Shown here: positions 23,198 to 38,601 of the stretch, piece after piece | How positions within the stretch are numbered: the first letter of the stretch is position 1 | Layout: the number at the start of each line of letters is the position of its first letter | Source: Candidatus Thorarchaeota archaeon | GTDB lineage: Archaea; Asgardarchaeota; Thorarchaeia; Thorarchaeales; Thorarchaeaceae | Direction: 5' to 3' | Assembly (NCBI GenBank): GCA_048882045.1 | Contig: JBHLRZ010000002.1 | Span: 1 to 64,000, forward strand | Length of the DNA: 64,000 nucleotides | Notes under the pieces: model-generated | Seen by the model: only the letters and a program-made list of their open reading frames with translations | What the model was told of the DNA's origin: nothing | Databases searched by the model: none | Program-made: the position numbers and the translations under genes

Positions 23198-23246
23198 TCG
23201 TTTTATCTGCAGAAAAGAGGATTTGGATTATCAGAGATGTGATACT

Positions 23247-23639: not shown

Positions 23640-23664
23640 TTCATTGTATTACCAGTAATACGAT

Positions 23665-24312
23665 TCAATGTTCTTCTTCCTGCGTAATCCAGTCTCGAAC
23701 CATTTTTAGTCGAACAAAATCTTCTCGTTCACGTTCTTCTAAGGCAAGCTTGACAAAACGTGCAGTTGCATCCAATCGAGGAATCACGACTGTTTCAAGT
23801 GCAGAAACCCGGCGTTTTGTTTTTTCAATCTCAAGAGCTAAACGTTTCACGGTTGATTCTATTTCAGCGAGACGTACAATGGCATTCAGTGCTTCCTTGA
23901 ATTTCTCTCCCATGACATCAAACTTTGTACTAGAATCGGCTAATGAATAGGGTAATTCTGGAGAACTCTGTTCAACCGACAGAATCGGAACTCGAACACC
24001 CATCATAGATCTAGTGGATATACTAAGATTTGCTTCAAACTTACTGGCATATGCAAACTCGACAACTCGAGCAGGCCCCATGATCATTTTTGCTTGAGTA
24101 AGTGCTGAGAAAGCTTCGGACAAAGCACTGTCGACTTTCTCTCGGGCTTCTTTGATTTCAGCTATAGCGTTGAAAAACTCCATGATGAGTGAGTCTCTCT
24201 TTTCACGTAGTAAATCATGGCCCCTTTCAGCAAGCCGCATGCGGTTCTTCAAGGCGAGGAGTTCCATGCGTGTGGTCTTTGTGCCAGGTAAGATTTTGCT
24301 CATGGTCATCAC
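23665..24312 (-). CDS. atpD: A/V-type ATP synthase subunit D (stand-alone)
   Basis: TRMELL.LK.R..LAERGHDLL..KRD.L, EIEKTKRRV.ALE...IP, EEREREDF.RLK. Confidence 0.96.
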   Translation of the reverse strand: MMTMSKILPGTKTTRMELLALKNRMRLAERGHDLLREKRDSLIMEFFNAIAEIKEAREKVDSALSEAFSALTQAKMIMGPARVVEFAYASKFEANLSISTRSMMGVRVPILSVEQSSPELPYSLADSSTKFDVMGEKFKEALNAIVRLAEIESTVKRLALEIEKTKRRVSALETVVIPRLDATARFVKLALEEREREDFVRLKMVRDWITQEEEH

Positions 24313-24367
24313 GTTTTCTAGCTGGGTAAGTCAAAAACATAGCTATTCTAAACTCTTACGTTTCATA

Positions 24368-24661
24368 CTAGTAGAATGTGAACGCAATTGCGCTGATGAT
24401 GATTCCAACTGTGCAGATGACTAGCCAGTCACGAAGATACTTTGCTGTCAGTTGTGGTCTGTCACTGATTTGACCGTTAGTTATGAAGGTGACAATGGAT
24501 ATGAAAAGGAACGCAAAAGGGAGTGACACGCTTGTATGGGTCAACGGAACATCAGTAATCATAATGATTCCTATAAGGCCTCCACAGATCAGAAGAGAGA
24601 GAAACATCAGCGAGTTCATGATGTGCTTTATTCGTTCTACATCCATTTTGTGTATCTCCAT
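24368..24661 (-). CDS. Small 3-TM membrane protein
   Basis: Three hydrophobic segments; divergent from the AAA ATPase gene. Confidence 0.7.
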   Translation of the reverse strand: MEIHKMDVERIKHIMNSLMFLSLLICGGLIGIIMITDVPLTHTSVSLPFAFLFISIVTFITNGQISDRPQLTAKYLRDWLVICTVGIIISAIAFTFY

Positions 24662-24776
24662 GAATTTGCCATCGTAACGAGATTGACTTCCAGCCAGTCC
24701 ATTCTCTTCAAAAAGGTTGTGTCTTGATGACAGATTTTACCATACACTTTATATCCGAATGGCGTGTCCCAAAATT

Positions 24777-24801
24777 GTATTACAAGCACTACTTGTGATA
24801 C
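24777..24801. promoter_or_regulatory. Three GTA(A/T)TAC-like heptads in 9-bp phase between TATA and start of the AAA-RHH operon
   Basis: GTATTAC-AA-GCACTAC-TT-GTGATAC; TTTATAT box at ~24748. Confidence 0.65.
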
Positions 24802-24822
24802 CAGCCTCTAGAGGTCCACAAA

Positions 24823-25797
24823 ATGACGATTGCGATCCATGAGAGTGCACTGATTCGTCACTTTAACACACGCAAGGAAGTTTTGCGAGCGTGGGAAGAA
24901 AAGATCGGTGCTAGATTCTCACCATTTCGTGGTTTTAAGATGCCTGATAGTCGTCTATACATAGAGGACAGTGATTTTCTTGATTCAATTGTTGACTTGA
25001 TTATCACAAATGAAAGGCATGTCTTCATCCGAGGACCAGTAGGATCCGGAAAGAGCACTCTGATGTTGTTAGCGCTGAGAGATTTACCAACTCTTGCTGA
25101 TCGTAAAGGTAACAAATTCATTACAGGATATGTAGGGATGACAGGTCTCTACGAAAAACAGATGGCATCAGCTATTGCAGATTCTTTAAGGATAAAGTAC
25201 AGAAGATCATGGGAGTCCAGCCAGATTATTGATGCAGTTGCGAAGGAAAGTCTTCGTAGATATCTTGAGGAGAAAAGCCGTACTGCATTGTTCATCGAAG
25301 ATGTTGCAGACAATCAAGAGGCAGCTTTTCACAAATTGAGATTCCTAGCTGATTTACCAACTGAAGAGATGATTGATGCATACTCAGGAGCACTTGACGA
25401 GCCTATCTTCACATTGGTAATGTCTGGAACATTGATATATTGGAATGCAATGCTTTCATTCTTACCACAGATAGCAGATCGAACTGAACCACTTGATGTG
25501 CCACCACTCAATAACGCAAAAGCTAGAGAATTCATAGGTCGACGGATTGCCTATGCACAAAACAAGATTGATATCTTTGACCCAGAAAATTTCAGTATAT
25601 ATCCATTTTCGGAAAGTGCAGTAGAGGTCATTAATACTGCAGCTAAAGGGAATCCACGAGACATACGAATGCTCGCACGCGGATGTCAACAAGTAGCAGC
25701 TGAGAATCTTAGAAATACTGGAAATCCGGATGTTACCAAGGATATTGCTGTACTTGTTTCTGAGGCATATGCTACTCTACTCAGGGAGGTTCAATAA
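24823..25797 (+). CDS. ExeA/TnsC-like (AAA_22-type) AAA+ ATPase
   Basis: Walker A GPVGSGKS, Walker B variant LFIEDVA, sensor-I VMSGT, QIADR, FIGRRI, PFSESAV, sensor-II GNPRDI. Confidence 0.8.
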   Translation: MTIAIHESALIRHFNTRKEVLRAWEEKIGARFSPFRGFKMPDSRLYIEDSDFLDSIVDLIITNERHVFIRGPVGSGKSTLMLLALRDLPTLADRKGNKFITGYVGMTGLYEKQMASAIADSLRIKYRRSWESSQIIDAVAKESLRRYLEEKSRTALFIEDVADNQEAAFHKLRFLADLPTEEMIDAYSGALDEPIFTLVMSGTLIYWNAMLSFLPQIADRTEPLDVPPLNNAKAREFIGRRIAYAQNKIDIFDPENFSIYPFSESAVEVINTAAKGNPRDIRMLARGCQQVAAENLRNTGNPDVTKDIAVLVSEAYATLLREVQ

Positions 25798-25798
25798 A

Positions 25799-26092
25799 GT
25801 GAGTCTACTTGGAAAATACAGAAAAGAAGCAGAAAAAGAAGACGAAGAACCAAGGGCTGTAGTCAGAGAAACCGATTCTGTATCAAAACAGAGCGAGCTC
25901 TTATCATCCGTACCTAACAAAGAACGTAAGAGCCCCATCGTTTCCTTCTCTATTCCGACCGATCTCAGAGCCTGCCTAAAGGCTATACGTAAAACAAAGG
26001 CGATTAACCTTAGTATGTGGGTTGAGAAACAGCTCCGTGAAGCAGTGGCACAAGAGTTTCCACAAATTGCAGAAGAATTCCTTGAAAATTAA
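25799..26092 (+). CDS. Putative ribbon-helix-helix DNA-binding protein with charged N-terminal tail
   Basis: GTG 1 nt after the ATPase stop, preceded by GGAGGT; IVSFSIPTDLRACLKAI...INLSMWVEKQLREAV fits RHH strand-helix-helix. Confidence 0.72.
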   Translation: MSLLGKYRKEAEKEDEEPRAVVRETDSVSKQSELLSSVPNKERKSPIVSFSIPTDLRACLKAIRKTKAINLSMWVEKQLREAVAQEFPQIAEEFLEN

Positions 26093-26124
26093 CTGTAATA
26101 CGAGTATTATAAAAAGGACCTGCA

Positions 26125-27510
26125 TTATCGAGTGCGAAATCTTGCATACTTTGTAATTCGAGATATGCAAAGAGCTGCCAATGAGGGATCATCATAACAA
26201 GGGATCCTATTCATCTCTAAGAGATCCTTTCCGGGTTTTCCAACATCTCCTGCAAGCCAGACTCCAACCACTGGTTTATTTGAAGCAGCAGATCTTACTC
26301 CTTCAAGTGTACCAGCTGCATGTTCAGTCTGAGTCATCCCTGCAAAAGTAGGAACAGCGCATATGACTAGCAGAGTGTCGACATTCTTGTCATTTAGTAA
26401 CAACTCTGTGGCAATCTTGTATTCTCGTCTACCTCCACTAGCGACAACATCGATTGGATTGTTCACAGAAGCCATGGGTGGGAGAACTTGACGAAGTTCT
26501 TCTGTCGTATTATCTTCAAGGTTTGGAATTTCTAGACCTATCTTTGCTGCTGCATCAGTAGCTAGAACTCCTGCACCACCTGTATTACTAATAATACCAA
26601 TACGTTGCCCCTTTGGGAGTGGTTGATAATCAAAGAGTTTGCATATTTCAAATAGTGTGTCAAGGGATGGTGCTGTGACACAACCGGCTTGGCGAATCAT
26701 TCCATCAAAGACCTTTGCCGAACCTGCAAGAGACCCTGTGTGTGATTGTGTAGCACGACTGCCAGCCTCACTCTGGCCTCCCTTCAAAACTACAACTGGT
26801 TTCTTCTTGGCCGCATTGTACAGCGACTCAAACATTTCTCGACCTTCATCCACACCTTCGATGTATGCAGCAATGACTGTTGATTTTGTGTCCTCTCGAA
26901 AGTAGTCGAAGATTTCGACAAAACCTACATCTGCTGAATTACCAATGCTGGCAAACTTACTCATACCAATTCTCTTTGATCGGGTTGTGTATATTATCAT
27001 TCCACCAAGAGCACCACTCTGAGAAACGAATGCAATATTTCCTCTCTCAGGCATCATAGTGAATGTGCCATTGAAGAGTCGGCTGTTTGAAACGCCGACA
27101 CAATTAGGACCAATGATGCGTACCCCTGCATCATTTGCTGCTTGAACTAGAAATTTTTCCAATTCAGCACCTTCAGGTCCGGTTTCACTGAAACCTCCTG
27201 AGATGATCACTGCATTCCTTGCTCCAGCTTTCCTTACTTCAGACATCAGTGGGGGACAATATTTGGCTGCTACTACAATTATGGCAAGGTCAACAGGCTT
27301 TGGTATGTCAGTCAAGCTTTTGTATGCAGGTACACCAAGCACACGGTCTCGACTATGAGTTATGGGGTAGACTTCTATCTCTGATGCTAACAGGTTCATC
27401 ATGATTGAGTTGCCCAATTTTCGATAGTCTGCTGAAGCTCCCACTAGAGCAACTCTTGTGGGATTGAAGAAAGGATCTATACTCTTCACAAGTTTCTGAG
27501 AACCTGTCAT
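26125..27510 (-). CDS. acdA: Acetate-CoA ligase (ADP-forming) alpha subunit
   Basis: FFNP..VALVGAS, IISGGFSE, IIGPNCVG, SQSGALG, SHTGSLAG, NNPID. Confidence 0.92.
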   Translation of the reverse strand: MTGSQKLVKSIDPFFNPTRVALVGASADYRKLGNSIMMNLLASEIEVYPITHSRDRVLGVPAYKSLTDIPKPVDLAIIVVAAKYCPPLMSEVRKAGARNAVIISGGFSETGPEGAELEKFLVQAANDAGVRIIGPNCVGVSNSRLFNGTFTMMPERGNIAFVSQSGALGGMIIYTTRSKRIGMSKFASIGNSADVGFVEIFDYFREDTKSTVIAAYIEGVDEGREMFESLYNAAKKKPVVVLKGGQSEAGSRATQSHTGSLAGSAKVFDGMIRQAGCVTAPSLDTLFEICKLFDYQPLPKGQRIGIISNTGGAGVLATDAAAKIGLEIPNLEDNTTEELRQVLPPMASVNNPIDVVASGGRREYKIATELLLNDKNVDTLLVICAVPTFAGMTQTEHAAGTLEGVRSAASNKPVVGVWLAGDVGKPGKDLLEMNRIPCYDDPSLAALCISRITKYARFRTR

Positions 27511-27569
27511 GAACTCACGGCAAAGGCGAAGTCGATTTATGTCTGTCGAGTGTCATGACAAGAGCTGTA

Positions 27570-28820
27570 CTACTGGTAATACACACCTCTTTCCTTGAGA
27601 AGTGCTCGTTGAAGACTGAGGAGTTTTCCTCGATTCATACAATCTCTATCGAGTTGTGTTTCTATAACGTAATCAGTTTCAGGACACCGTTTGTGTACAT
27701 TTCTTATCGAACGAATCGCTGTGTCTATGATTTCCTGTTTCTTGTTTGTACACAAAATCTCAACTAATGACGACACAGCTGATTCGTGATAGAAATTCCC
27801 GATAGCTAAGATTGCCATTGTTGCCACACGGTTGTCAGTCATCTCGGACGCTTTTTCTAGTACCATAAGGGAATCAATGGCACGCACAGTGACATGAACC
27901 TGGATATGTTGTAAGATAGCATTGAATGCAGTGGCTGATTGAGTTTCACTATATTGAGAAATCGATTCGTCGAGAAGTGCATTTAGTGTTGGTAAGGCAT
28001 GTTTACTTGCCAGACGACTGAGTCCTTCTATGTCTTGTTGGATTATCTGATCCAGCAACTCTTTGTACAATTTGTTTGCAGGACTAAGATAGTCATCATT
28101 ATTGCGTGGATATGGATTCAGATTCTCTTGTAATGAAACTGGTTCTTGTATTACTGATAATACACGACTCAAGATATCAGGAGTTACTTGGTTTCCTCTT
28201 ATCCCTAGACTAGTCAGTGTGACACGTCCCTGTTCACAGTACCAAAGTGGACTAATGTTGATAATGGATTCATCTTGTACCAGAGAGATAGCACGAAGCT
28301 TCTCGCTTCTCATTCGCTGAAGCAGGTCTATAGTTTTTTGAGATATGGTAGTACTGTCTGAGAAATCATAGAACAGGGTATCGCCACTTTTGATCTGTGT
28401 GACGGCAAGATTTTCGAGTCTAGTAGCAAGGGCGTTTGAAGCGTCTATCAATGACTTCTCAGAATCAAGCTCACTAAGTAGTACTGATGTATCAACAGGA
28501 ACTGGTTCAAGACCTGAACATGAAAGAAGATTAAAAACAACTTCTCTGTACTTCAGCTGTTCTAGCTCTGCTTCAGTTTTGCCTAAAGTCATCGATAAGG
28601 AATATTTTTGGTCTTGTGCTTTCCGAAGATAACCAAGTACTGAAGACCAACCCTCATCCTGTTCAATTTGTGCTATGACATCTACAAGATCTCTATCACG
28701 GCGGTCTCCTATGGTATTTGCAATCATTCGGACTCGTTCACGTTCATCAGATTCCTTGACTCTTCTTTTGACTGCCTTGAGGATTCGATCACGACTTGTT
28801 TTGTCAGTCAAGGGAATCAC
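27570..28820 (-). CDS. Helical hypothetical protein with C-terminal HEAT-like repeats
   Basis: 416-aa ORF; ATMAILAIGN...SAVSSLVEIL...IIDTAIRSI. Confidence 0.65.
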   Translation of the reverse strand: MIPLTDKTSRDRILKAVKRRVKESDERERVRMIANTIGDRRDRDLVDVIAQIEQDEGWSSVLGYLRKAQDQKYSLSMTLGKTEAELEQLKYREVVFNLLSCSGLEPVPVDTSVLLSELDSEKSLIDASNALATRLENLAVTQIKSGDTLFYDFSDSTTISQKTIDLLQRMRSEKLRAISLVQDESIINISPLWYCEQGRVTLTSLGIRGNQVTPDILSRVLSVIQEPVSLQENLNPYPRNNDDYLSPANKLYKELLDQIIQQDIEGLSRLASKHALPTLNALLDESISQYSETQSATAFNAILQHIQVHVTVRAIDSLMVLEKASEMTDNRVATMAILAIGNFYHESAVSSLVEILCTNKKQEIIDTAIRSIRNVHKRCPETDYVIETQLDRDCMNRGKLLSLQRALLKERGVYYQ

Positions 28821-28997
28821 AGCTCTATAGATGATTGTTCATTGAACCCGAAGAAGACGATTAAGGTTTCTTGGGTTACCCTGAAGATTGTATTTCTTGT
28901 ATTACATGTATCAAATAATGAAAGAAAGCGCCAAATCAATGTCAAAAAAAGTCGTTCTATGATTAGAACTATGTATACTTGAGACCATGTAATGTAT

Positions 28998-29180
28998 GAG
29001 TGTGTCGTACAATGGCAAGTAGGCCACGTCGACGAGGACACCTCTCCGACGTGCCAGGCGTTCGTCATTGACGTCATCTCTATCTCCTCAAACAAACCTC
29101 CAGGATGACCTAATGGTTGCCTTGGTGATGGAGAAGGAAGCACTCGCATGCGTTGGAATACTTCGCAGTGCGACACGCTC
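28998..29180 (+). ncRNA. Unassigned structured ncRNA (~185 nt, multibranch)
   Basis: 13-bp closing stem GAGTGTGTCGTAC (28998-29010)/GTGCGACACGCTC (29168-29180) with 2 G-U pairs; 3-4 internal hairpins; TATGTATA at 28970-28977; T-tract 29187-29200. Confidence 0.7.
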
Positions 29181-29186
29181 GAGCCG

Positions 29187-29200
29187 TTTATTTTTTCTTT
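29187..29200 (+). terminator. Oligo-T terminator of the putative ncRNA
   Basis: TTTATTTTTTCTTT just downstream of the closing stem. Confidence 0.6.
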
Positions 29201-29745
29201 CATTCAGATTTTCTTCTAGAGATTTCTGACTTCAAGGCAAGTGATGTAGAGAGTTCATCGAGAGCAGACATGATTGTCCGTTCAGTGACTCTGATACTTT
29301 CTAGTTCTTCTGTTGTCAGTTCTTTCTTCCCTGCAAGTATGTCTCGAATCCTTCTGTAGTCACCGATCCTAGCCGCAACTTCTTCAAACGGTCTGAAGAT
29401 AGTAAACTCGAATAGACCCAGATATGCGAGAAGTAGCATTGTGTAGAAACATCGTGTGAGGTTTCTCCTAGCTTGCATGAGCGTCCGGTTGAATGCTCCT
29501 CTGGACACACCACGTGATCTAGTCCCTTCTTTAGATCGAAAAGATGCCTTGTCTTCGTATGTAATATGAGATCCATAGGAGTCTTCTACTACTAAGTCTA
29601 TGAGAAGAGTTTCGATTTGTGCCTCACTTAGAAAAGATCCTTCTTGGAGTTTTTTCAGTATTGGTTCTTTCAGAACTTGTTTTGCACCTGATGTCAGCTG
29701 TTTCACTTTGTCCTTTCCTTCACTTTGTTTTGGGTTCAAAGTCAA
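29200..29745 (-). CDS. Conserved archaeal HTH-type protein
   Basis: LSEAQIETLL..., YEDKASFR...GVSRGAFNRTLMQARRNL (sigma-region-4-like HTH). Confidence 0.7.
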   Translation of the reverse strand: MTLNPKQSEGKDKVKQLTSGAKQVLKEPILKKLQEGSFLSEAQIETLLIDLVVEDSYGSHITYEDKASFRSKEGTRSRGVSRGAFNRTLMQARRNLTRCFYTMLLLAYLGLFEFTIFRPFEEVAARIGDYRRIRDILAGKKELTTEELESIRVTERTIMSALDELSTSLALKSEISRRKSE

Positions 29746-29937
29746 ATCACTCTCTATCTGGCTTTTTAGACTACTCGCTCCAGAAGGCTCAGGAATGCCA
29801 TAGAATGCATTTCTTCGAAGCGTGTAATTGTCCTTATGGGCGGATACAACTTTGTATACAAAAATCAGTTTGATATGGAGCTTAAGAAGGTTAAGGTCAA
29901 GTTTGAATGTGATAATTGTAATACAATGAAACAGTGT

Positions 29938-30348
29938 CTATCTTTTTGAAAGAGTCCATTCAGATTCTGGGGTCATAGCTACAAATCCCAAAATTAAATT
30001 TCCACGGATCTCATCAAACTTGTACACTCCAAATACATTCCTTCCCGAGTCGTCAGTCCATTCAACACGACCACGTAGTAAGTAATGCTGGAACACAACA
30101 CGACTCTGTTTTCTAACAGATGCGAAGAGATTTTTGTATCTCCTACGTTGGGAAGGTCTGATTCCCCATCTAACAAAAATGAATCTGTTAGTGAGACTGT
30201 TACTGGAGATTAGAACAGACTTTCTACCTCGAGTATTGATGGCTTCCTTGAGTGCGTTTCTAAGACACTCAGGTATAGAAGCCAATATGGATGGAGTTGG
30301 ATCGGGTTCACGAACGAGCTGTCGAGTACGTACACTGCGGTCTGTCAC
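29938..30348 (-). CDS. Basic hypothetical protein, possibly winged-helix nucleic-acid binding
   Basis: 136 aa, very Arg-rich, helices followed by a beta-hairpin ending VYKF. Confidence 0.6.
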   Translation of the reverse strand: MTDRSVRTRQLVREPDPTPSILASIPECLRNALKEAINTRGRKSVLISSNSLTNRFIFVRWGIRPSQRRRYKNLFASVRKQSRVVFQHYLLRGRVEWTDDSGRNVFGVYKFDEIRGNLILGFVAMTPESEWTLSKR

Positions 30349-30520
30349 GTTGGTTCAATACTTTTTTCCGATAGGAGCCTTAAGAGGTCCTACAAAGTTT
30401 GTCACTTCATTGAATTATTATCATGGATGCCATTGAATACGGCGAAGGTGTTGACCCTTTGATGGAGCAAGCTGTGATTGATTTAGTTGATAAATAGTTG
30501 TAATACAAGTATTAGATGGG

Positions 30521-31135
30521 TTACAATGTAGATTTGACTTGTTCAAGTCCTAATTTTGTTGCATCAATATTGATCTTCTCGAACTTCTTTGGAAATGCGT
30601 CTTTTACCACATTGATTGCTTCGTCTTCAGAAATTGGAATGATATCTGTACCAATTATAGCACCTAACATAACCATGTTGAGAGCTCGGGTACTACCAGC
30701 CTTCACTGCCAACTCCATTGCATCGAACTCTATGATTTTGTCTGTGAATTCATTCATTCTCTTTATGATTTCATCATGACTAGGGTATTCCGCTTTACCC
30801 ATTGAAACTGCAACAGGATGTTGAATATGTGAACTCATGAGAACAAAACCACCTTTCTTCACAAGATGAATTTCTCTGAGAGTTTCAACAGGTTCGAATC
30901 CAACGAGAATGTGTGCAGTGCCAGGATCTATGATAGGACCCTTGGCATCTTCGCCAACTCTGACTGTGCAGACAACATGTCCTCCTCTTTGAGCCATTCC
31001 ATGGATTTCACCCACACGAACATTGAGCCCACAGTGAAGAGCAGCTCTTGCAAGGATTTCAGCAAGCGAAAGAACTCCTTGACCACCCACTCCAGTGATG
31101 GCGACATTGATTGTATTACCATTATTACCAGTCAT
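30521..31135 (-). CDS. iorB: Indolepyruvate:ferredoxin oxidoreductase beta subunit
   Basis: GVGGQG, EIHGMAQRGG.V...VR, NMVMLGA. Confidence 0.95.
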   Translation of the reverse strand: MTGNNGNTINVAITGVGGQGVLSLAEILARAALHCGLNVRVGEIHGMAQRGGHVVCTVRVGEDAKGPIIDPGTAHILVGFEPVETLREIHLVKKGGFVLMSSHIQHPVAVSMGKAEYPSHDEIIKRMNEFTDKIIEFDAMELAVKAGSTRALNMVMLGAIIGTDIIPISEDEAINVVKDAFPKKFEKINIDATKLGLEQVKSTL

Positions 31136-33028
31136 CTATGGTTCCTCCTGTTTGATTGCGCCCTGAGGACACACTGAAACACAAGTACCACATAGGTTGC
31201 ATAGTGTTTCATCAATCACAGCCTGTTCGGTTTCAGGATCCATATACATTGCTGGACAAGAAAGTCTGTTGAGACAACGTTTGCATGCATTACAAATCTC
31301 TGAGTCTACATAGTACTTTGGCGGGAACTCTCCAGTTCGTTGACGATCAGCAGCTGTAAGGAGAGCACAAGGTTCCTTTGAAATCAATACAGCAGGACTG
31401 TGATTATCTCGAGTCCACTTGACCATCTCACGGACTTCTGCAACAAGGGTAGCCATGGATTCAAACGGTTCAACAGTCTTGGTGTATTTGACTCCTAGTC
31501 CTTTGCATACTTCTTCGATATCAATTGGTGGAACTTCCTTTTGCATACCAGTCAAACCTGTACCTGGATGAGGCTGATGACCAGTCATCGCAGTTGTCCT
31601 GTTGTCAAGTACTACAAGAGCAATCCGATGTTGATTATATACAGCATTAGCAATACCAGGTAGACCAGATGCAAAGAACGTACTATCACCTATTGTTGCT
31701 ACAACATCTTGGTCAGTGACCTCTGCAATTCCACATGCAGTCGTGATTGACGATCCCATATCAAACAAGATGTCAGCTGTTTCTAGGGGTGGAGCAATAC
31801 TCAATGTGTAGCATCCGATGTCAGAAGGATAGATGGCCTTTCCTCTCGTTGCCGTTCTGATTGCATAGTAGGTTGCACGATGTGGACATCCCGCACAGAG
31901 GAGTGGCGGTCTCGGTGGGAGTTCGGGGAGTTTCTCTGTCTTTTTGTCAATTTCTTCCCAGTTAATAGGTGTATTACATGTAGTAATCTTGCTCAATGCG
32001 TCCATTACGATTCTCGGACTGAACTCGTACGTTCGTGCAAAGTAACCTTGCTCTTTCCCAAGGATGTCAACATCGATCTTGTTGAGTTGTGCCAGTCTTC
32101 TTGCATGAGTTTCGAGATACGGTTCAAGCTCTTCAACAACCAGGACTTGTGCGTGTCGCGAAAGGAAATCCATAATCATCTTTTCAGGAATTGGATGAGT
32201 TATTCCAAGCTTCAGTACTTCTGCTTTGACACCTATGGTTGATAATGCTTCAACGACATAATTGTAGGATACACCACTTGTGATTATTCCAAGATCTCCC
32301 TTGCCTTCTGTATAGTTCAGTGGACTCTTCTCAGAGAATTCACGTGCAAGTTCTATCTGACCAAGGAGCCAAGGATGTCGTTTCCTTGCAACAGAAGGAA
32401 CAGGCACAAACCGAAATGGTTCCTTTTCGAACTCTACCTTGCTTGGACGAGGTAGTATCTTTCCGAATTCTATAGGAGCTCGTGTGTGATTGACTCGAGT
32501 TGTAGTACGGAACAAGACTGGAAGTTCAAATTGTTCAGAAAACTTGTAGGCTTCAAGGAGCATTGACTTTGCTTCTATTGGATCAGCTGGTTCCATCATT
32601 GGCATGTTTCCCATCAGTGCATAATACCTGCTGTCATTCTCGTTCTGGGAACTCCACATACTGGGATCATCGGCGACTACTATCACCATTCCAGCACGAA
32701 CACCGACATAGCTCAGTGAGAAGAATGGGTCTGCAGCAACGTTTAGTCCTGGACCCTTACAGACCATCATTGATCTCACACCAGATACTGCGGCTGCACC
32801 CGCTACTTCCAATGCAACCTTTTCGTTCGTACTGAATTCAAAATAGAAGTCTGGAATGTGTGGTGCCATGGAAGTCAGGTTGTTACCAATTTCACTACTC
32901 GGCGTTCCAGGATATAGGGCAACAAGCCGTACACCTGCTTCCAACACTCCGCGTGCTATAGCTTCATTGGCAAGAAGAAGTATTTTCTTTCCTGGTTTGT
33001 CCTCAAGAAGTTCCTTGGGTTTGGCCAA
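31136..33028 (-). CDS. iorA: Indolepyruvate:ferredoxin oxidoreductase alpha subunit
   Basis: YPGTPSSEI, NEKVALE, RPPLLCAGCPHR, DIGCY, GDSTFF, C-terminal 2x[4Fe-4S]. Confidence 0.96.
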   Translation of the reverse strand: MAKPKELLEDKPGKKILLLANEAIARGVLEAGVRLVALYPGTPSSEIGNNLTSMAPHIPDFYFEFSTNEKVALEVAGAAAVSGVRSMMVCKGPGLNVAADPFFSLSYVGVRAGMVIVVADDPSMWSSQNENDSRYYALMGNMPMMEPADPIEAKSMLLEAYKFSEQFELPVLFRTTTRVNHTRAPIEFGKILPRPSKVEFEKEPFRFVPVPSVARKRHPWLLGQIELAREFSEKSPLNYTEGKGDLGIITSGVSYNYVVEALSTIGVKAEVLKLGITHPIPEKMIMDFLSRHAQVLVVEELEPYLETHARRLAQLNKIDVDILGKEQGYFARTYEFSPRIVMDALSKITTCNTPINWEEIDKKTEKLPELPPRPPLLCAGCPHRATYYAIRTATRGKAIYPSDIGCYTLSIAPPLETADILFDMGSSITTACGIAEVTDQDVVATIGDSTFFASGLPGIANAVYNQHRIALVVLDNRTTAMTGHQPHPGTGLTGMQKEVPPIDIEEVCKGLGVKYTKTVEPFESMATLVAEVREMVKWTRDNHSPAVLISKEPCALLTAADRQRTGEFPPKYYVDSEICNACKRCLNRLSCPAMYMDPETEQAVIDETLCNLCGTCVSVCPQGAIKQEEP

Positions 33029-33149
33029 TCACAGATCCTCCGTTCATGGATATTTCGAGTGAGATTATGAACGATGTATCAGTTTTGTGGTACTGGACAA
33101 GTATCATAACGTTTGGAACACGTGTTCTAGTTAGTATTGCGCACATAAG

Positions 33150-33316
33150 ACCCCTTCATTTCCACTGGAAGAGATCTATGGAAAAGTCTACGGCGGGCGT
33201 GTGTGTATGCATTATAAAAATGGAGATAAAGAACGGCTGCATAAACGATTATAAATACTTTTGGATATTTTACCGATTAGACATATTTGAATAGTTTCTA
33301 GTGGAAACAAGGGGGT
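33150..33316. other. Putative replication origin: inverted ORB pair flanking an AT-rich spacer
   Basis: Minus 33172-33150 TCTTCCAGTGGAAATGAAGGGGT; plus 33294-33316 GTTTCTAGTGGAAACAAGGGGGT; both match the archaeal ORB (TTCCAGTGGAAA + G-string); 121-bp spacer. Confidence 0.8.
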
Positions 33317-33402
33317 TCAATTGTCATTAGAACACATGTTCTAAGCCATTTTTGAAGATCCTATTGTGTGTATTACAATTAATAGAATCTGGAACACGTG
33401 TT

Positions 33403-33702
33403 CTAAAAGATTTCTTCAACTACTTCAAAGATCTTGATTTTTAGAATGTCTTCATACATCTCAAAGAGAGCATCAAATACGATTCGATGTTCCACTGGAA
33501 CTAGGATTGCTGAATCAGCAACAGCTTTTGCTCCTGGACACTCATCTAGAAGACCAGGCTTCTTTTTCTTTTTGATACCAGATTTGGTTCTCCATGAATA
33601 CACAAATCCATAGAGCTCCTTTGTAAAAGAAACACGTCGTGCGTTACTACGTCTTGCCTGTCGACAATCATAGAGATACAGATATGCTGTCACTCGAATC
33701 AA
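33403..33702 (-). CDS. Small basic Cas2/PaaX-like ferredoxin-fold protein
   Basis: YLYLYD, R..F.KELYG, K.PGLL, DSAILVP pattern; no cas genes nearby. Confidence 0.6.
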   Translation of the reverse strand: MIRVTAYLYLYDCRQARRSNARRVSFTKELYGFVYSWRTKSGIKKKKKPGLLDECPGAKAVADSAILVPVEHRIVFDALFEMYEDILKIKIFEVVEEIF

Positions 33703-33835
33703 CCAGACAAAAGAACACGTGTTCTGATTTTGAGTGCTAGTAATACATGGCCTGCACGGAAAAGTTAAAGCGTATGTAGCTCGGCCCTCGAGTCTGTCAA
33801 CGAGGACATCCGACAGCAGATCAGGAGGACAATCA

Positions 33836-35128
33836 ATGAACCGGATTGGTCTTAGGAAAGAAGAAAAAGCGTATGAAACCCGAGTTCCATTGGTACCTGA
33901 TCATGTAAAATTACTACATGACAAACACGGTATTGAGTTTGTTCTTGAACCAAGCAATCAACGTGCTTTCAAGGAAGATGAGTACCATGCTGAAGTCCTA
34001 CCCCTAAAAGGAAGCAACACTCCAGTTGTATTGGGTATCAAAGAGATGCCAGCAGATTTCTTTGAAAAGAACGTAGTCTATGTATTCTTCAGTCACACTA
34101 TCAAAGGACAAGACTACAATATGCCTATGCTCAAACGTATCTTGGATGTCGGAGCCACATTGATTGACTATGAAAAAGTAGTTGACGATAAAGGTCGAAG
34201 GCTGATATTCTTTGGAAACTGGGCAGGGATGGCTGGTATTTCTGATACACTCCGCATGCTTGGCGATCGTCTAGAAGTCCTAGGTATAACACCTAATCCA
34301 TTTGCTCAGATGAATCCCACTCTTGAACTAGGTGGAGTCGAACAACTGAAACATGAGTTCGCAGAGCTTGGCAAACGTATCAAAGAACAAGGCCTACCCG
34401 AAAAACTCACTCCTTTTGTGCTTGGTTTCGCTGGTTATGGTAATGTATCAAGAGGAGCTCAGACAATATTTGACATCCTCCCACACAAAACCATCGAACC
34501 AGAAGAAATCGAAAAGGTCACTCAAGAATCACACTTGATCTACAAATGTGTCTTCAAAGAGGAACATATGGTTGAACCCCGAGATTCATCTCAACAGTTT
34601 GATCTCCAAGATTACTACATGAATGGTAAAGCAAAGTACGTCGGTGTATTTCACAAGTACATCCCATACATCACTGTGTTGATGAACTGTATCTACTGGA
34701 CTAGCAAATACCCCCGACTGGTCACAAAGGAGTTTATTCAGAACCATTGGAAACAGAAGTCCCGAAGACTACAGATTGTGGGAGATATTTCCTGTGATGT
34801 AGAAGGTGCTATCGAATTCACCCTAAAATGTACAAAACCAGATAACCCTGCATTCACCTACATTGTTGATGAAGATCGAGCCGAACTGGGTATCAAAGGC
34901 AATGGCCCAGTGGTGATGTCAGTTGATAACCTTCCAGCAGAACTTCCACGTGAATCATCCACATCATTCAGTGAAACACTTCTTGATTTCATACCTGCAC
35001 TTGCAAGAACTGACTTCACTGTTCAATTCTCTGAGCTTGACTTACCTCGGGAGCTCAAAGATGCCATAATCGTTTACAAAGGTAAACTAACTGAGAACTA
35101 TCAGTATCTCACTCAATATATCCAATAG
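33836..35128 (+). CDS. Lysine-ketoglutarate reductase-like (AlaDH/PNT fold; LKR half of AASS)
   Basis: ETRVPLVP, LGIKE.P, FFSHTIKGQ.YNM, LIDYEK, GYGNVSRGAQ, NCIYW...YPRL, DISCD, VDNLPAELP; GGAGG SD. Confidence 0.88.
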   Translation: MNRIGLRKEEKAYETRVPLVPDHVKLLHDKHGIEFVLEPSNQRAFKEDEYHAEVLPLKGSNTPVVLGIKEMPADFFEKNVVYVFFSHTIKGQDYNMPMLKRILDVGATLIDYEKVVDDKGRRLIFFGNWAGMAGISDTLRMLGDRLEVLGITPNPFAQMNPTLELGGVEQLKHEFAELGKRIKEQGLPEKLTPFVLGFAGYGNVSRGAQTIFDILPHKTIEPEEIEKVTQESHLIYKCVFKEEHMVEPRDSSQQFDLQDYYMNGKAKYVGVFHKYIPYITVLMNCIYWTSKYPRLVTKEFIQNHWKQKSRRLQIVGDISCDVEGAIEFTLKCTKPDNPAFTYIVDEDRAELGIKGNGPVVMSVDNLPAELPRESSTSFSETLLDFIPALARTDFTVQFSELDLPRELKDAIIVYKGKLTENYQYLTQYIQ

Positions 35129-35139
35129 GAGGACAACGA

Positions 35140-36456
35140 ATGAAGAATATATTATGTCTGGGTGCAGGCCTAGTCGCCCGCCCATACATCCAATATCTCT
35201 CAGACAATGGTTTCCATGTCACTGTTGCAAGTCGTACTGTGAGTAAAGCTGAACGTCTGATTGAGGGATGCAAAAATACAGAAGCAGTAGCTTTCAATAT
35301 AGGAGATGATGATGAGCTCCTTGAGGAACTTACCAAAAAATCTGACCTTGTCTGTTCTCTGCTACCCTATACATACCATGTTAAGGCTGCTAAGGTAGCA
35401 ATTAAACACAAGACCCATTTCTGTACAACGTCATACATTTCAGATGAGATGAAAGCACTAGATGACGATGCCAAGAAAGCTGGTATACTTCTTCTGAACG
35501 AGTGCGGAGTCGATCCAGGTATCGATCATATGAGTGCAATGAAGATTATCGATGAGGCTCACAACAACAATGGAAAGATTGTAAGTTTCACTTCATTCAC
35601 AGGTGGTCTTCCAGCACCTGATGCGAACAACAATCCATATGGTTACAAACTTTCATGGAGTCCACGAGGAGTACTACTTGCTGGTCGCAATGATGCACAT
35701 TTTCTCCGTGACGGAAAAGAAGTAATGATTCCTGGCCCTGAACTTTTCCAGAACTATGACCTCATGGAGGTCCCTGGAATAGGCACGTTTGAAGGGTATC
35801 CCAATCGTGACAGCCTTTCCTATATTGATATCTACAATATTCAAGAAACAGAAACAATGCTTCGTGGGACATATAGGAATGTGGGCTGGTGCGACACACT
35901 TGACAAGATAGCCGACTTGGGTCTTTTGAGTATCGAAGAAAGGACTTTCGATGGAATGACATACGGTGATCTCATACGAGAACTGACATCAACCAGCGAA
36001 TCAGATGTGAAATCTGCTGTTGCCAAGTTCTGCGGTTTCGAAATCGAAAATCCTATCATGAAACGTCTAGAATGGCTGGGCTTGTTTGAAGAGAATGAGA
36101 TTCCTTCAGGTATCAACACAATCCTGGATTCTGTCTGTAACCTCTTTGAAGAGAAGCTACAATATGCACCTGGCGAGCGTGACATGATTGTTATGCACCA
36201 CGAATTCTTAATTCAATTTCCAGACAAGAAGCAAAGGGTGACTTCTACTCTCATCGACTATGGCATCCCAAATGGGGACAGCTCAATGTCAAGGACCGTA
36301 GCCTTACCTGTTGCCATAGCAAGTAGAATGATTCTAGATGGAAAAATCACTCTGACTGGAGTTCATAGACCTATCATCCCTGAAATCTACGAACCAATTC
36401 TCAAGGAACTAGAATCACTAGACATCAAGATGGACGAGAAAACATTTGATTTGTAA
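35140..36456 (+). CDS. Saccharopine dehydrogenase (L-glutamate-forming; Lys9/SDH half of AASS)
   Basis: LGAGLV, SLLPY..H, TTSY, NECGVDPGIDHM, YKLSWSPRG, YPNRDS, RGT.R, SSMSRTV. Confidence 0.92.
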   Translation: MKNILCLGAGLVARPYIQYLSDNGFHVTVASRTVSKAERLIEGCKNTEAVAFNIGDDDELLEELTKKSDLVCSLLPYTYHVKAAKVAIKHKTHFCTTSYISDEMKALDDDAKKAGILLLNECGVDPGIDHMSAMKIIDEAHNNNGKIVSFTSFTGGLPAPDANNNPYGYKLSWSPRGVLLAGRNDAHFLRDGKEVMIPGPELFQNYDLMEVPGIGTFEGYPNRDSLSYIDIYNIQETETMLRGTYRNVGWCDTLDKIADLGLLSIEERTFDGMTYGDLIRELTSTSESDVKSAVAKFCGFEIENPIMKRLEWLGLFEENEIPSGINTILDSVCNLFEEKLQYAPGERDMIVMHHEFLIQFPDKKQRVTSTLIDYGIPNGDSSMSRTVALPVAIASRMILDGKITLTGVHRPIIPEIYEPILKELESLDIKMDEKTFDL

Positions 36457-36486: not shown

Positions 36487-37113
36487 TCATTCCCCAACTC
36501 GCATCTGTATTGCAGCTAGAATCTCTTCAGCTCTATCGGTTTCTTTCTGAACTTCTGCAATCTCAGTCCGGAGTCTGTACGTATAACCAGAACGGTTTCC
36601 ATAACGCTCGAGATGTCCCTTTCCATTATTCCACATTCTTGCAAGGTATGTTGAAGCAGTACTCTTTGGTAGGTCTTCATTGAAAGAATCTTGGTAGATT
36701 TCAGTCACGTCCAATGAGGAGAACTTTCCATGCTTGAATGATGCATAGATGATCACCTGCATCTTGTCATAGTTACTCATCGACTCAAATCGAGTGTCAT
36801 CTAATCCGACTTCTGTGACCTCTTCACTAATTGGCTTGAAGATGAATCCAGTGCTTGTTTCCAAAAAAACCTTGAATTTGACAAACATCTCTTCGATGCT
36901 GCCACCTTTGACCTGAAAACTTGATTCTTCTCCCATCGTTTCGTCTGATACAACAATTTTGAAGTCGAACGGTGATTCTGTGAGAGCCAATATTTTCCGG
37001 AATCTGTTGAGGGCTTCATCAGGTTTGACATACTTGCACTGAAAGATCTCACGAAGACCAGGCGCCGAGCTATATGTGAATTCGTATACATAGTTAGTCC
37101 GGTCTTCAGTCAA
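36487..37113 (-). CDS. Winged-helix DNA-binding protein
   Basis: C-terminal FSSLDVTEIYQDSFNEDLPKSTASTYLARM...HLERYGNRSGYTYRL wHTH. Confidence 0.78.
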   Translation of the reverse strand: MTEDRTNYVYEFTYSSAPGLREIFQCKYVKPDEALNRFRKILALTESPFDFKIVVSDETMGEESSFQVKGGSIEEMFVKFKVFLETSTGFIFKPISEEVTEVGLDDTRFESMSNYDKMQVIIYASFKHGKFSSLDVTEIYQDSFNEDLPKSTASTYLARMWNNGKGHLERYGNRSGYTYRLRTEIAEVQKETDRAEEILAAIQMRVGE

Positions 37114-37140
37114 ACATCATATCTCCTATCTTCTTGATTA

Positions 37141-37580
37141 TTCACAATCCACTACATTCACTTTGCAAATAAGTGTGAGTATGTGAATTGTGTATACCAT
37201 GATAAGAGCTACATAGTGCGTCTATACACATATAGGACTCGTCCACCCCGTTTTTGCTGTGCTGACGTCCTGTGAAGTCCATTTGACTACAAAAAAGGGT
37301 TATGCATCCTTATTTGAACAAATGAACACGATTCTCCTTTTGTTTCACTATTCACTAATTTATGGCCCTTGTGAATGAGTGTGTAAGTATTTCATATGTC
37401 TTCTTACTTGTTTCCAATGGAAACGAAGGGGTGTGTTCATTCACAGGCTTCATCGCACTTATCATCACCCCGTTCCATCCTTAAAGCAATAAGATGCTTG
37501 TTTTTTCTAGAGTATTCACAATATTGGCGCCATTCACAAGAGAAAAGTGTGAACTGATGTAGATATGAACAACCAGTGAA
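37141..37580. repeat. ~12 TTCAC/GTGAA iteron-like repeats plus one ORB
   Basis: TTCAC at 37141,37157,37344,37351,37440,37515,37533; GTGAA at 37183,37272,37371,37549,37576; ORB GTTTCCAATGGAAACGAAGGGGT at 37410-37432. Confidence 0.72.
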
Positions 37581-37593
37581 TCAGAAAGATACC

Positions 37594-38601
37594 CTATCCG
37601 AGAGGAATCAAGTAGTCTTCGGGACGTTCTCCTAAGATGAGATGCGAGTACTGACTACCAGTTCTATGATCTGTGACCAGCTCCATTCTTCCAAGTGCTT
37701 CAAACTGATCACCTGCAGAAACTTGTTCAGTGAATCGTCCGCGATAGCTTGTAAGTTCTTCAATTCCTATACGTTCATCATCACACTCAACATGGTATTC
37801 ACAGGGTGTGAATATCGAGTCCTGACTACTCAACACTTTTCCAGACACTTTCTGATACTTCATCATTTGATATGACAAATCTCCATAGACAAAGTCTAGA
37901 TCACTTGGAGTCTTTACTAGTCTAATGAAGAAGTGATATTCTCCAACCAGTCCCTGTAGCAACTTCTCTCTCTCAATTTCTAGAAGAACAGGACGTAAAT
38001 CAGTCTGTTGTCCCCATCTGAATGAAACATGTTCTTCAAGCAGTTGTCCTGAATATCTGGTTATTTCCGGAATGTTGTCAATTACTGAGCTGAGTCTAGA
38101 GTAAAACTGTCTGCATGCTTTCAATCCATAGATGACTAGATCGATGTCTGAGCCTTCGCGTGCTATACCCACTAATTGAGACCCTGTGAGTCCGATGTCA
38201 TTCCATTCGATTCCAGTCATTTCAATAAGTTTCTCTGATAATAAAATTGTACTATGTTGAAGAGGTGTCAATTCATCCAAGGTTTGCAGGTGAGTCAGAA
38301 ATTCCACAGGATGGAGAATTGTCGATACTTTTTCTCTTGGTACTGACTGCACAATTCTTCCGTGTGAATCACTGGTCCACAAGTACTCAGGATATCTCTC
38401 TCTGAGATAGATTTCTCGTTCACCAAGATCATACACTTTTTTGAATCCAGTACTTGAATCAGACGAAGGGACATATCGAAGATATGCAATAATTCGGTCT
38501 TTGGGGTGAATCACACCTTTCACTTCAAATACAAGACCTTCTGTTGTTATGACAAAAAATCCTTCAATAGGATCTTCGAGCACTGTAATCAACACAATCA
38601 A
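37594..38601 (-). CDS. Archaeal predicted nucleotidyltransferase (COG1665-like)
   Basis: F.VKG..HP.DRIIAYLRYVP, GLTGS.L.G......SDIDLVIYG, SYRGRF.EQ. Confidence 0.82.
   Translation of the reverse strand: MIVLITVLEDPIEGFFVITTEGLVFEVKGVIHPKDRIIAYLRYVPSSDSSTGFKKVYDLGEREIYLRERYPEYLWTSDSHGRIVQSVPREKVSTILHPVEFLTHLQTLDELTPLQHSTILLSEKLIEMTGIEWNDIGLTGSQLVGIAREGSDIDLVIYGLKACRQFYSRLSSVIDNIPEITRYSGQLLEEHVSFRWGQQTDLRPVLLEIEREKLLQGLVGEYHFFIRLVKTPSDLDFVYGDLSYQMMKYQKVSGKVLSSQDSIFTPCEYHVECDDERIGIEELTSYRGRFTEQVSAGDQFEALGRMELVTDHRTGSQYSHLILGERPEDYLIPLG

What the first reader, a model, noticed from the sequence alone, without database searches (positions are those of the whole stretch)
33150..33316. ORB-defined replication origin with no adjacent cdc6/orc1 gene
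Seen: two 23-bp elements matching the archaeal ORB consensus in inverted orientation, with G-strings pointing outward, around a 121-bp AT-rich spacer. A palindromic mini-ORB (GTTCCACTGGAAC, 33489-33501) lies inside the next gene. Known: ORB pairs flanking a DUE mark Orc1-1-type origins and usually sit beside their initiator gene. Here the flanks are iorA and a small Cas2-like gene, and no Cdc6 is encoded in 64 kb. Inference: an origin served in trans and surrounded by several dedicated DNA-binding genes.
Basis: partly seen in the sequence, partly recalled or inferred. Interest (0 to 1): 0.8.

Follow-up and report, generated by a model that had tools for sequence, protein, structure and literature searches.

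The report
Asgard replication origin split from orc1
This is very probably the chromosomal replication origin of a Thorarchaeota (Asgard) archaeon, built from classical Orc1-binding boxes; unlike nearly all other Asgard genomes sampled, its initiator gene lies about 129 kb away instead of next door.

Summary
Two ORB elements (33150-33172 minus, 33294-33316 plus) sit in inverted orientation, G-strings outward, around a 121-bp spacer whose right half is 78-80% AT.

With up to 3 mismatches, the 3.63-Mb assembly has only three full ORBs. They are this pair and a third at 37412-37432.

The pair, its spacing and four flanking GAACACGTGTTC palindromes recur in all 10 same-genus genomes aligned.

In other Asgard families the same ORBs lie within 3.5 kb of an Orc1-1-type gene in 41 of 43 same-contig cases. 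In this family they never do (54-152 kb in 7 of 7).

The cognate Orc1-1-type gene sits at 162 kb on the same contig and a second paralogue at 75.5 kb, so "no Cdc6 in 64 kb" is correct.

Cumulative GC skew peaks at the ORBs in a 179-kb sister contig. In a distant 1.42-Mb single-contig genome it forms one of two near-equal maxima there.

Corrections: the mini-ORB inside the 99-aa gene is not conserved. "Cas2-like" is only a generic ferredoxin-like fold. Only one neighbour is a clear DNA-binding (winged-helix) protein.

The scan's first-stage notes had already flagged this origin, the palindromes and the third ORB. Replication was not measured.

The parts
33150..33172 (-). ORB-L: origin recognition box, G-string pointing left (outward)
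   Evidence: Sequence. One of only 3 ORBs in the genome. Conserved in 10 of 10 genus genomes.
33173..33293 (.). Spacer with the candidate duplex unwinding element; the least stable part is 33241-33300
   Evidence: 66% AT overall. 33241-33300 is 78-80% AT and in the 99.94-99.96th stability percentile. Spacer length is 123-126 bp in all 10 species. The content is conserved but reverse-complemented in 4 species.
33294..33316 (+). ORB-R: origin recognition box, G-string pointing right (outward)
33115..33128 (.). PAL1: palindrome GAACACGTGTTC, 22 bp outside ORB-L and 88 bp upstream of iorA
   Evidence: 10 exact copies genome-wide against about 0.2 expected; 3 exact and 1 near copy lie here. Position conserved in the genus and in a same-order genome, G025.
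33329..33342 (.). PAL2: palindrome with one mismatch (GAACACATGTTC), 13 bp outside ORB-R
33391..33404 (.). PAL3: palindrome at the 3' end of the 99-aa gene
33403..33702 (-). 99-aa conserved protein (small99) with a ferredoxin-like fold and unknown function; origin-linked in Asgards
   Evidence: 190 homologues, all unnamed, from Thorarchaeota. AF2 pLDDT 90.5. Only generic fold matches. Homologues sit beside ORBs in G025 and G026.
33489..33501 (.). Palindromic mini-ORB-like 13-mer inside small99; probably incidental
   Evidence: Present. Encodes VPVE. Absent from the 9 other species.
33712..33725 (.). PAL4: palindrome between the divergent small99 and AlaDH-like genes
36487..37113 (-). 208-aa protein (orf208) with a C-terminal winged helix; origin-linked across Asgards
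   Evidence: 305 homologues; the 120 best listed are 86-100% identical. AF2 model. wH fold at Z 8-9, tied among PadR-type regulators and Cdc6/Orc wH domains. Homologues lie beside ORBs in G025, G027, G031 and G035.
37410..37432 (+). ORB3: third full ORB, about 300 bp upstream of orf208
   Evidence: Invariant across the genus. The pair and ORB3 lie 4.1-4.3 kb apart throughout the family.
37139..37582 (.). Array of ATTCACA/TGTGAAT heptamers and a TTGGCGCCA palindrome around ORB3
   Evidence: 7 heptamers in about 460 bp against 0.11 expected per 500 bp. This is the densest cluster in the genome; the next best has 3. Conserved in the genus. Related motifs occur in G035, G031 and G025.
31136..33028 (-). 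iorA (indolepyruvate:ferredoxin oxidoreductase alpha), the left flank
   Evidence: Pfam TPP_enzyme_C, POR_N and Fer4.
33734..36456 (+). AlaDH/PNT-like and saccharopine dehydrogenase genes, lying between small99 and orf208 in this family
   Evidence: Pfam. Absent from that position in G025, where orf208 and small99 are adjacent.

Best explanation
This is the oriC1-type chromosomal replication origin of a Thorarchaeota (Asgard) archaeon.

Inferred mechanism, by analogy with Sulfolobus, Aeropyrum and Pyrococcus:
- The Orc1-1-type initiator encoded at C2:162241-163491 diffuses to the site.
- It binds ORB-L and ORB-R as oppositely oriented monomers. The winged helix sits on the TTCCAGTGGAAA dyad and the AAA+ initiator-specific motif on the G-string.
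- It loads MCM onto the AT-rich spacer between the boxes, giving bidirectional replication.

Shown here:
- The ORBs are genuine, unique in the genome, inverted around a low-stability spacer, and conserved.
- They are homologous to orc1-adjacent ORB pairs in other Asgard families.
- They sit at a GC-skew extremum in relatives.
- A cognate-type initiator gene exists on the same contig.

The origin belongs to a larger conserved module. That module holds a winged-helix gene, a third ORB 4.1 kb away inside an ATTCACA-repeat array, and the 99-aa gene. The array and ORB3 are probably regulatory or accessory binding sites; this is inference.

The ancestral order survives in a same-order genome: orc1 | ORB3 | wHTH | small99 | ORB pair | iorA. 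In this family a rearrangement removed orc1 to 54-152 kb away and left the cis elements intact.
For: (1) Uniqueness. There are 3 ORBs with up to 3 mismatches in 3.63 Mb, all within 4.3 kb, and the reversed control gives 0. Shuffles give 0.00.

(2) Footprinting. In 10 of 10 genus genomes the ORBs are conserved islands 144-147 bp apart start to start. The spacer is 123-126 bp, while the surrounding intergenic DNA diverges.

(3) Orientation-independent conservation. In 4 species the spacer matches G000 only as its reverse complement (scores 16-28, against -6 to -14 forward and at most 2 for shuffles). This fits a symmetric element better than a one-sided promoter.

(4) Low-stability spacer.

(5) Homology of context. 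Outside this family, ORBs lie within 3.5 kb of the Orc1-1 orthologue in 41 of 43 same-contig genomes. Most pairs there are also minus-then-plus.

(6) G025 shows the intermediate gene order, with iorA, small99 and orf208 beside orc1.

(7) Initiator type. Cdc6B best matches Aeropyrum ORC1 bound to an ORB (2v1u, E 5e-101) and Sulfolobus Cdc6-1 (2qby_A, E 2e-98).

(8) Skew. The cumulative GC-skew maximum of G005 contig C69 (179 kb) falls at 112-116 kb, with the ORBs at 113.1 kb. In the 1.42-Mb single-contig G026 the only two ORBs (622.65-622.88 kb) lie 3 kb from a maximum at 626 kb. In G000 a plateau turns into a steady decline at about 36 kb. The same inverted skew polarity is documented for haloarchaeal origins (PMC1868953).
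Against: - No replication data exist: no marker frequency, no binding assay, no ARS test.
- In G000 only 33 kb lie to the left of the site, so its own skew test is weak.
- The three same-genus skew curves share synteny and are not independent.
- In G026 a second maximum at 1283 kb is marginally higher (3749 against 3731).
- The skew sign is opposite to bacteria and Pyrococcus.
- Genes to the right of the site mostly point towards it, so there is no co-orientation signal.
- Some archaea grow without using their origins, so a conserved origin need not be the main initiation site.
- Orc1 proteins also bind non-origin sites and act as transcription factors (PMC3607249).
Confidence: 0.8

Rival explanations
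1. A dormant or secondary origin. The ORB module is a conserved binding platform, but most initiation happens elsewhere. Candidates are an unrecognised origin served by the second paralogue Cdc6A, or recombination-dependent replication.
For: A second Orc1/Cdc6 paralogue lies at 75.5 kb. Dormant origins and origin-independent growth are documented in Haloferax and Thermococcus (abstracts of PMC4595724 and PMC5663688). G026 has a second skew maximum at 1283 kb.
Against: No repeat cluster or ORB lies beside either cdc6 gene. No other ORB-like cluster exists in the assembly. The element is tightly conserved across a family and across the phylum.
Confidence: 0.1
2. Transcriptional operator sites. 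An Orc1/Cdc6 paralogue acts as a transcription factor and uses the ORBs to regulate iorAB, the 99-aa gene and the wHTH gene, with no role in initiation.
For: Orc1/Cdc6 proteins bind non-origin sites and affect transcription in Sulfolobus (PMC3607249). The ORBs sit in promoter-bearing intergenic regions. ORB3 lies at a constant ~300 bp upstream of the wHTH gene in four lineages.
Against: An inverted pair around an AT-rich spacer of fixed length is the classical origin layout. Function seems independent of orientation. The same pairs are orc1-adjacent in 41 of 43 other Asgard genomes. They coincide with skew extrema.
Confidence: 0.07
3. Chance resemblance, or an origin of an integrated plasmid or virus.
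For: None found beyond the absence of an adjacent initiator gene.
Against: Zero hits in shuffles and reversed controls. The site is embedded in conserved core-metabolic synteny in every genome of the family examined. No integrase or mobile-element genes were seen among the neighbours.
Confidence: 0.01

Closest known systems
oriC1 / Orc1-1 origins of Sulfolobus, Aeropyrum, Pyrococcus and haloarchaea (ORB elements, Robinson et al. 2004; reviewed in PMC4010727)
   Same: Same ORB anatomy of mini-ORB dyad plus G-string, with an inverted pair flanking an AT-rich unwinding region. An Orc1-1-type initiator is present. As in Pyrococcus abyssi, a further ORB cluster lies within about 5 kb of the main origin (PMC1904270).
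   Different: The initiator gene is not adjacent; it is 129 kb away here and 54-152 kb away across the family. The skew polarity is inverted, as in haloarchaea. Extra conserved elements (flanking GAACACGTGTTC palindromes, the ATTCACA array, a linked wHTH gene and a 99-aa gene) are not described for those origins.
oriC3 / WhiP of Sulfolobus (an origin specified by a winged-helix, Cdt1-related protein encoded next to it)
   Same: A winged-helix protein gene is tightly and anciently linked to origin DNA carrying its own repeat array.
   Different: No sequence match to Cdt1 or WhiP families was obtained. Structural matches to the Cdt1 C-terminal wH (5meb, 3a4c) and to Cdc6/Orc wH domains tie with generic PadR/MarR regulators. 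Canonical ORBs are present here. Membership is not established.
Haloarchaeal origins with a downstream regulatory ORB cluster (Haloarcula hispanica model, PMC4010727 abstract)
   Same: An additional ORB lies at a distance from the DUE-flanking pair and could modulate origin activity.
   Different: Here it is a single ORB inside a different heptamer array, 4.1 kb away with two metabolic genes in between. No genetic data exist.

Membership tests
Orc1-1/ORB (oriC1-type) archaeal replication origin | ORB elements: mini-ORB dyad (TTCC...GAA core) followed by a G-string | tested here: met
   Three elements each match 12 of 14 positions of the printed mini-ORB and carry GGGG(T). The TTCC and GAA core motifs defined in PMC1904270 are intact in ORB-L and ORB3. 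ORB-R keeps GAA but reads TTCT.
Orc1-1/ORB (oriC1-type) archaeal replication origin | At least two ORBs in inverted orientation flanking an AT-rich duplex unwinding element | tested here: met
   A minus/plus pair around a 121-bp spacer, whose 60-bp core is 78% AT and in the 99.96th instability percentile.
Orc1-1/ORB (oriC1-type) archaeal replication origin | Clustering: ORBs confined to the origin region rather than scattered | tested here: met
   All 3 genome-wide hits lie within 4.3 kb. The same holds in G026, which has 2 hits, both at one site.
Orc1-1/ORB (oriC1-type) archaeal replication origin | Cognate Orc1-1-type initiator encoded in the genome | tested here: met
   Cdc6B matches 2v1u_A at 5e-101 and 2qby_A at 2e-98 and scores 418 bits on TIGR02928.
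Orc1-1/ORB (oriC1-type) archaeal replication origin | Initiator gene adjacent to the origin (usual, not obligatory) | tested here: not met
   The nearest bona fide cdc6 is 42 kb away (paralogue A). The Orc1-1 type is 129 kb away. The same holds family-wide.
Orc1-1/ORB (oriC1-type) archaeal replication origin | Nucleotide-skew inflection at the site | tested here: inconclusive
   Clear in sister contig G005 C69, and one of two near-equal maxima in distant G026. In G000 itself only a change of slope is seen, with 33 kb of left flank.
Orc1-1/ORB (oriC1-type) archaeal replication origin | Orc1 binding, MCM loading, and initiation in vivo (marker frequency, 2D gel, ARS) | not testable with these tools
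   No reads, cultures or proteins were available.
Cas2 (for the 99-aa gene) | Sequence-profile or specific structural match to Cas2 | tested here: inconclusive
   No Pfam or NCBIfam hit. Cas2 chains appear only at Foldseek E >= 0.18 with TM 0.42-0.49, and at VIA Z 5.9-6.0, below unrelated ferredoxin-like folds at Z 7.4. The 10 neighbouring ORFs scanned between 28.8 and 38.6 kb gave no Cas family hit.
WhiP/Cdt1 winged-helix initiators (for orf208) | Homology to Cdt1/WhiP winged-helix domains | tested here: inconclusive
   Weak Foldseek hits to the Cdt1 C-terminal wH (E about 1e-2) tie with PadR/MarR regulators. VIA Z 7.8-8.5 to Cdc6/Orc wH domains ties with Pex/PadR at Z 9.1. The only Pfam matches fall below the curated cut-offs.

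The most novel reading that the evidence does not exclude
Asgard archaea may share a composite origin module that goes beyond the classical ORB/Orc1 pair. Its parts would be the DUE-flanking ORB pair, a third ORB embedded in an ATTCACA iteron-like array, a dedicated and extremely conserved winged-helix protein that binds that array, and a small ferredoxin-like protein. In Thorarchaeota, symmetric operator palindromes of a metabolic regulon would also flank the pair.

In this reading the wHTH protein is a second origin factor, either a licensing or Cdt1-like factor or a negative regulator. The palindrome-binding regulator would couple origin firing to amino-acid catabolism. The Thorarchaeota family, where orc1 has left the module while every cis element stayed, would then be a natural experiment separating initiator-gene autoregulation from origin function.
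Probability: 0.25. Interest if true: 0.8.

Novelty: new variant of a known kind. Interest (0 to 1): 0.62.

Why it matters
In the paper library I searched, I found no description of the cis-acting replication origins of Asgard archaea. [quoted passage not shown]

A sequence-defined origin gives a concrete target in three ways.
- Marker-frequency and growth-rate estimates from metagenomes.
- Biochemistry with Asgard Orc1 and MCM.
- Building replicating vectors for lineages that have no genetic system.

The family-wide separation of origin and initiator gene shows that the replicator-initiator linkage, almost universal in archaea, can be lost while the origin is kept.

The deeply conserved wHTH gene and repeat array beside the ORBs point to an unstudied origin-associated factor.

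The data also suggest that skew-minimum-based origin calls in closed Asgard genomes may be at the wrong extremum.

Tried and rejected
- **ORBs or repeats beside the two cdc6 genes of G000:** none found. Cdc6B has no upstream intergenic space at all.
- **Mini-ORB at 33489-33501 as a functional element:** rejected. The 10-mer core occurs 9 times genome-wide, close to my own estimate of about 7 by chance. It encodes VPVE and is not conserved.
- **The GAACACGTGTTC palindrome as a replication regulon:** rejected. The other copies sit 64-103 bp upstream of a methyltransferase/CdhD-like gene, an MFS transporter, a LysW-like gene and others. Its symmetric placement around the ORB pair stays unexplained.
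- **Cas2 identity of the 99-aa protein:** not supported.
- **Rfam scan of 32.5-38.8 kb:** only two sub-threshold chance hits. The conserved 37.1-37.6 kb region is therefore not a known RNA.
- **Pfam, NCBIfam and PDB profile searches of orf208:** no family assignment.
- **Gene co-orientation with replication:** not seen in the ORF list.
- **Literature on Asgard ORB origins:** none found.
- **One paper (PMC4724246)** on Orc1 polarity could not be read. The statement about which protein domain faces the DUE therefore rests on general knowledge.

Full report
**What is there.** The window is the first 64 kb of contig C2 (202 kb) of a 3.63-Mb, 93-contig assembly. Homologues of two local proteins are named "Candidatus Thorarchaeota archaeon" by NCBI, so this is an Asgard archaeon.

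At the stated coordinates lie two 23-mers. On the minus strand 33150-33172 reads TCTTCCAGTGGAAATGAAGGGGT, and 33294-33316 reads GTTTCTAGTGGAAACAAGGGGGT. They are inverted, with G-strings outward, around a 121-bp spacer.

Each matches 12 of 14 positions of the printed mini-ORB core and carries the G-string. The consensus is GTTCCAGTGGAAAC-AAA----GGGGG (PMC1868953). The TTCC and GAA core motifs (PMC1904270) are intact in ORB-L and ORB3; ORB-R keeps GAA but reads TTCT.

**More than chance.**
- A strict pattern finds only these two sites in the whole assembly.
- A 21-mer consensus with up to 3 mismatches finds three sites: the pair and a third ORB at 37412-37432. The reversed control finds none.
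- Shuffles of the window give 0.00 expected.
- The spacer is 66% AT against a genome average of 55.8%.
- The stretch 33241-33300 is 78-80% AT and ranks in the 99.94-99.96th percentile of least stable windows in the genome.

**Initiator genes.** Two bona fide Orc1/Cdc6 genes exist, both on C2 and both outside the window.
- Cdc6A is at 75510-76721. It matches Pyrobaculum Cdc6 (1fnn) best.
- Cdc6B is at 162241-163491. It matches the ORB-bound Aeropyrum ORC1 (2v1u, 5e-101) and Sulfolobus Cdc6-1 (2qby_A, 2e-98) best, so it is the Orc1-1 type.
- Neither gene has ORBs or repeat clusters beside it.

**Conservation within the genus.** All ten same-genus genomes aligned keep one layout: iorA, palindrome, ORB(-), spacer, ORB(+), palindrome(s), the 99-aa gene, palindrome.
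- The ORBs and palindromes are the conserved islands in otherwise diverged intergenic DNA.
- ORB starts are 144-147 bp apart, and the spacer is 123-126 bp in all ten.
- In four species the spacer aligns to G000 only as its reverse complement. Scores are 16-28, against -6 to -14 forward and at most 2 for shuffles.
- The cassette has therefore flipped, probably between the flanking inverted repeats, while keeping its content. This fits a symmetric function.
- The mini-ORB inside the 99-aa gene appears only in G000 and spells V-P-V-E, so it is probably incidental.

**Conservation across Asgards, and the uncoupling.** I searched 121 genomes of the phylum for the Cdc6B orthologue and for the ORB 21-mer and computed distances.
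- Outside this family, 54 genomes have both. In 43 they share a contig, and in 41 of those 43 the nearest ORB is within 3.5 kb of the gene. The other two are about 10 kb apart.
- Inside this family, 18 genomes have both. Seven share a contig, at 54-152 kb, and none is adjacent.
- Five further same-genus genomes give 63-76 kb, with Cdc6A 23-42 kb away on the same side.
- The same-order genome G025 shows the intermediate order: cdc6B, ORB within TGTGAAT repeats, wHTH gene, 99-aa gene, palindrome, degenerate ORB, AT-rich spacer, ORB, palindrome, iorA.
- So orc1 adjacency is ancestral. This family lost it by rearrangement and kept the cis elements. An AlaDH-like/saccharopine dehydrogenase pair now lies between the 99-aa gene and the wHTH gene.

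**Skew.**
- G026 is a distant 1,418,269-bp single-contig genome. Its only two ORBs are at 622.65-622.88 kb, next to cdc6B. Cumulative GC skew has a maximum at 626 kb (3731), nearly equal to the global maximum at 1283 kb (3749). The minimum is at 93 kb.
- In sister contig G005 C69 (179 kb), the global maximum at 112-116 kb coincides with the ORBs at 113.1 kb.
- In G004 C1 a long rise stops at 88 kb, with the ORBs at 88.7 kb.
- In G000 C2 a plateau turns into a steady decline at about 36 kb.
- The genus curves share synteny and are not independent, and G000 has only 33 kb on one side.
- The polarity (origin at a maximum) is the one reported for haloarchaea (PMC1868953).

**The wider module.** ORB3 lies about 300 bp upstream of a 208-aa gene (36487-37113).
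- The C-terminal half of that protein is a winged helix. The AF2 model has pLDDT 79, and wH matches reach Z 8-9, tied among PadR/Pex regulators and the wH domains of Cdc6/Orc proteins.
- The protein is unusually conserved: the 120 best of 305 homologues are 86-100% identical.
- Relatives sit between ORBs in G025, G027, G031 and G035.
- The 480-bp region around ORB3 is almost invariant in the genus.
- It holds 7 ATTCACA heptamers, the densest cluster in the genome, where the next best has 3.
- It also holds a TATTCACAATATTGGCGCCATTCACA element, which recurs in recognisable form upstream of cdc6B in the distant G035.
- The pair and ORB3 are 4.1-4.3 kb apart throughout the family.

**Neighbours.**
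- The 99-aa protein is real, with 190 homologues. It folds confidently (pLDDT 90.5) into a ferredoxin-like fold. Cas2 is only one of many weak matches.
- Other neighbours are iorAB, an ADP-forming acetyl-CoA synthetase subunit, cysteine desulfurase, PAN, Trm5, NAC and TFE.
- The palindrome GAACACGTGTTC has 10 exact copies genome-wide. Outside this locus they sit upstream of metabolic and transport genes, so it looks like a transcription-factor operator.
- Its symmetric placement just outside both ORBs is also seen in G025 as AGAACATATGTTCT. This is unexplained.

**Interpretation.** The best reading is a functional oriC1-type origin served by a distantly encoded Orc1-1. Rival readings are a dormant origin, Orc1 operator sites only, and chance; they are weighed in their own sections. 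Binding, MCM loading and initiation are inferred from model archaea and not shown here.

**Literature.** Searches found no paper describing Asgard ORB origins. The 2025 Asgard replisome study treats proteins only. The closed Odinarchaeum genome paper chose a GC-skew minimum as a potential origin.

**Earlier notes of this scan.** First-stage notes had already flagged this origin, the palindromes and the ORB3/ATTCAC array on this same DNA. I reached ORB3, the palindromes and the heptamer array independently before reading them.

Noticed in passing
window 22614-33740: GTA(A/T)TAC heptads number 15 in 11.1 kb, against 193 in the whole genome (0.053 per kb). A 12-kb window here holds 13, while the best region elsewhere holds 5. 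The field ends at the origin. It could be an origin-proximal chromosome-organisation or partition signal.
   Followed up: partly
window 33173-33293 versus L038-L041 (G023, G007, G003, G017): The ORB-spacer-ORB cassette is reverse-complemented in one subgroup of the genus, with its conserved core ATAAAAATGGAGATAAA retained. The inversion probably occurred between the flanking inverted repeats.
   Followed up: yes
G026:C1:622652-625541 (L033, L087): This 1,418,269-bp single-contig genome has the size reported for Ca. Odinarchaeum yellowstonii LCB_4. That paper set +1 at a GC-skew minimum as a potential origin (PMC9246712). Here the only ORB pair and the Orc1-1 gene lie at 622.7-625.5 kb, at a skew maximum. 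The identity of G026 could not be verified.
   Followed up: partly
window 33115-33725; G000 C4:76641, C4:78973, C48:10961, C82:2251, C22:10181, C34:12157, C1:18608: The 12-bp palindrome GAACACGTGTTC, often extended to TTNGAACACGTGTTCNAA, has 10 exact copies against about 0.2 expected. Most lie 64-103 bp upstream of metabolic or transport genes. It is a candidate operator of an unidentified regulator.
   Followed up: partly
window 36487-37113: orf208 is more conserved across Thorarchaeota (86-100% identity in the listed hits) than iorA (83-89% identity in the same-genus loci). It has no family assignment. Its N-terminal domain has a beta-beta-alpha-beta-beta-alpha layout of unknown function.
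   Followed up: partly
window 29200-29745: This 181-aa protein carries an HTH-like segment (GVSRGAFNRTLMQARRNL). Homologues lie 4-7 kb from the ORBs in G025, G026 and G035, so it is another origin-proximal conserved gene.
   Followed up: no
G000 C82:2251-2403 (L049): On a 4.4-kb contig, a GAACACGTGTTC palindrome lies 120 bp from an ORB-like 21-mer with 4 mismatches (CTCCATCGGAAACGAAGGGGG). This may be chance or a degenerate second site.
   Followed up: no
G000 C3:168757-169695: A third, distant Orc1/Cdc6-like AAA+ open frame (405 aa) scores 72 bits on TIGR02928, below the cut-off of 181.
   Followed up: no
window 37594-38601: This 335-aa protein has a weak nucleotidyltransferase motif. It occupies the position that cdc6B holds in the same-order genome G025.
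   Followed up: no
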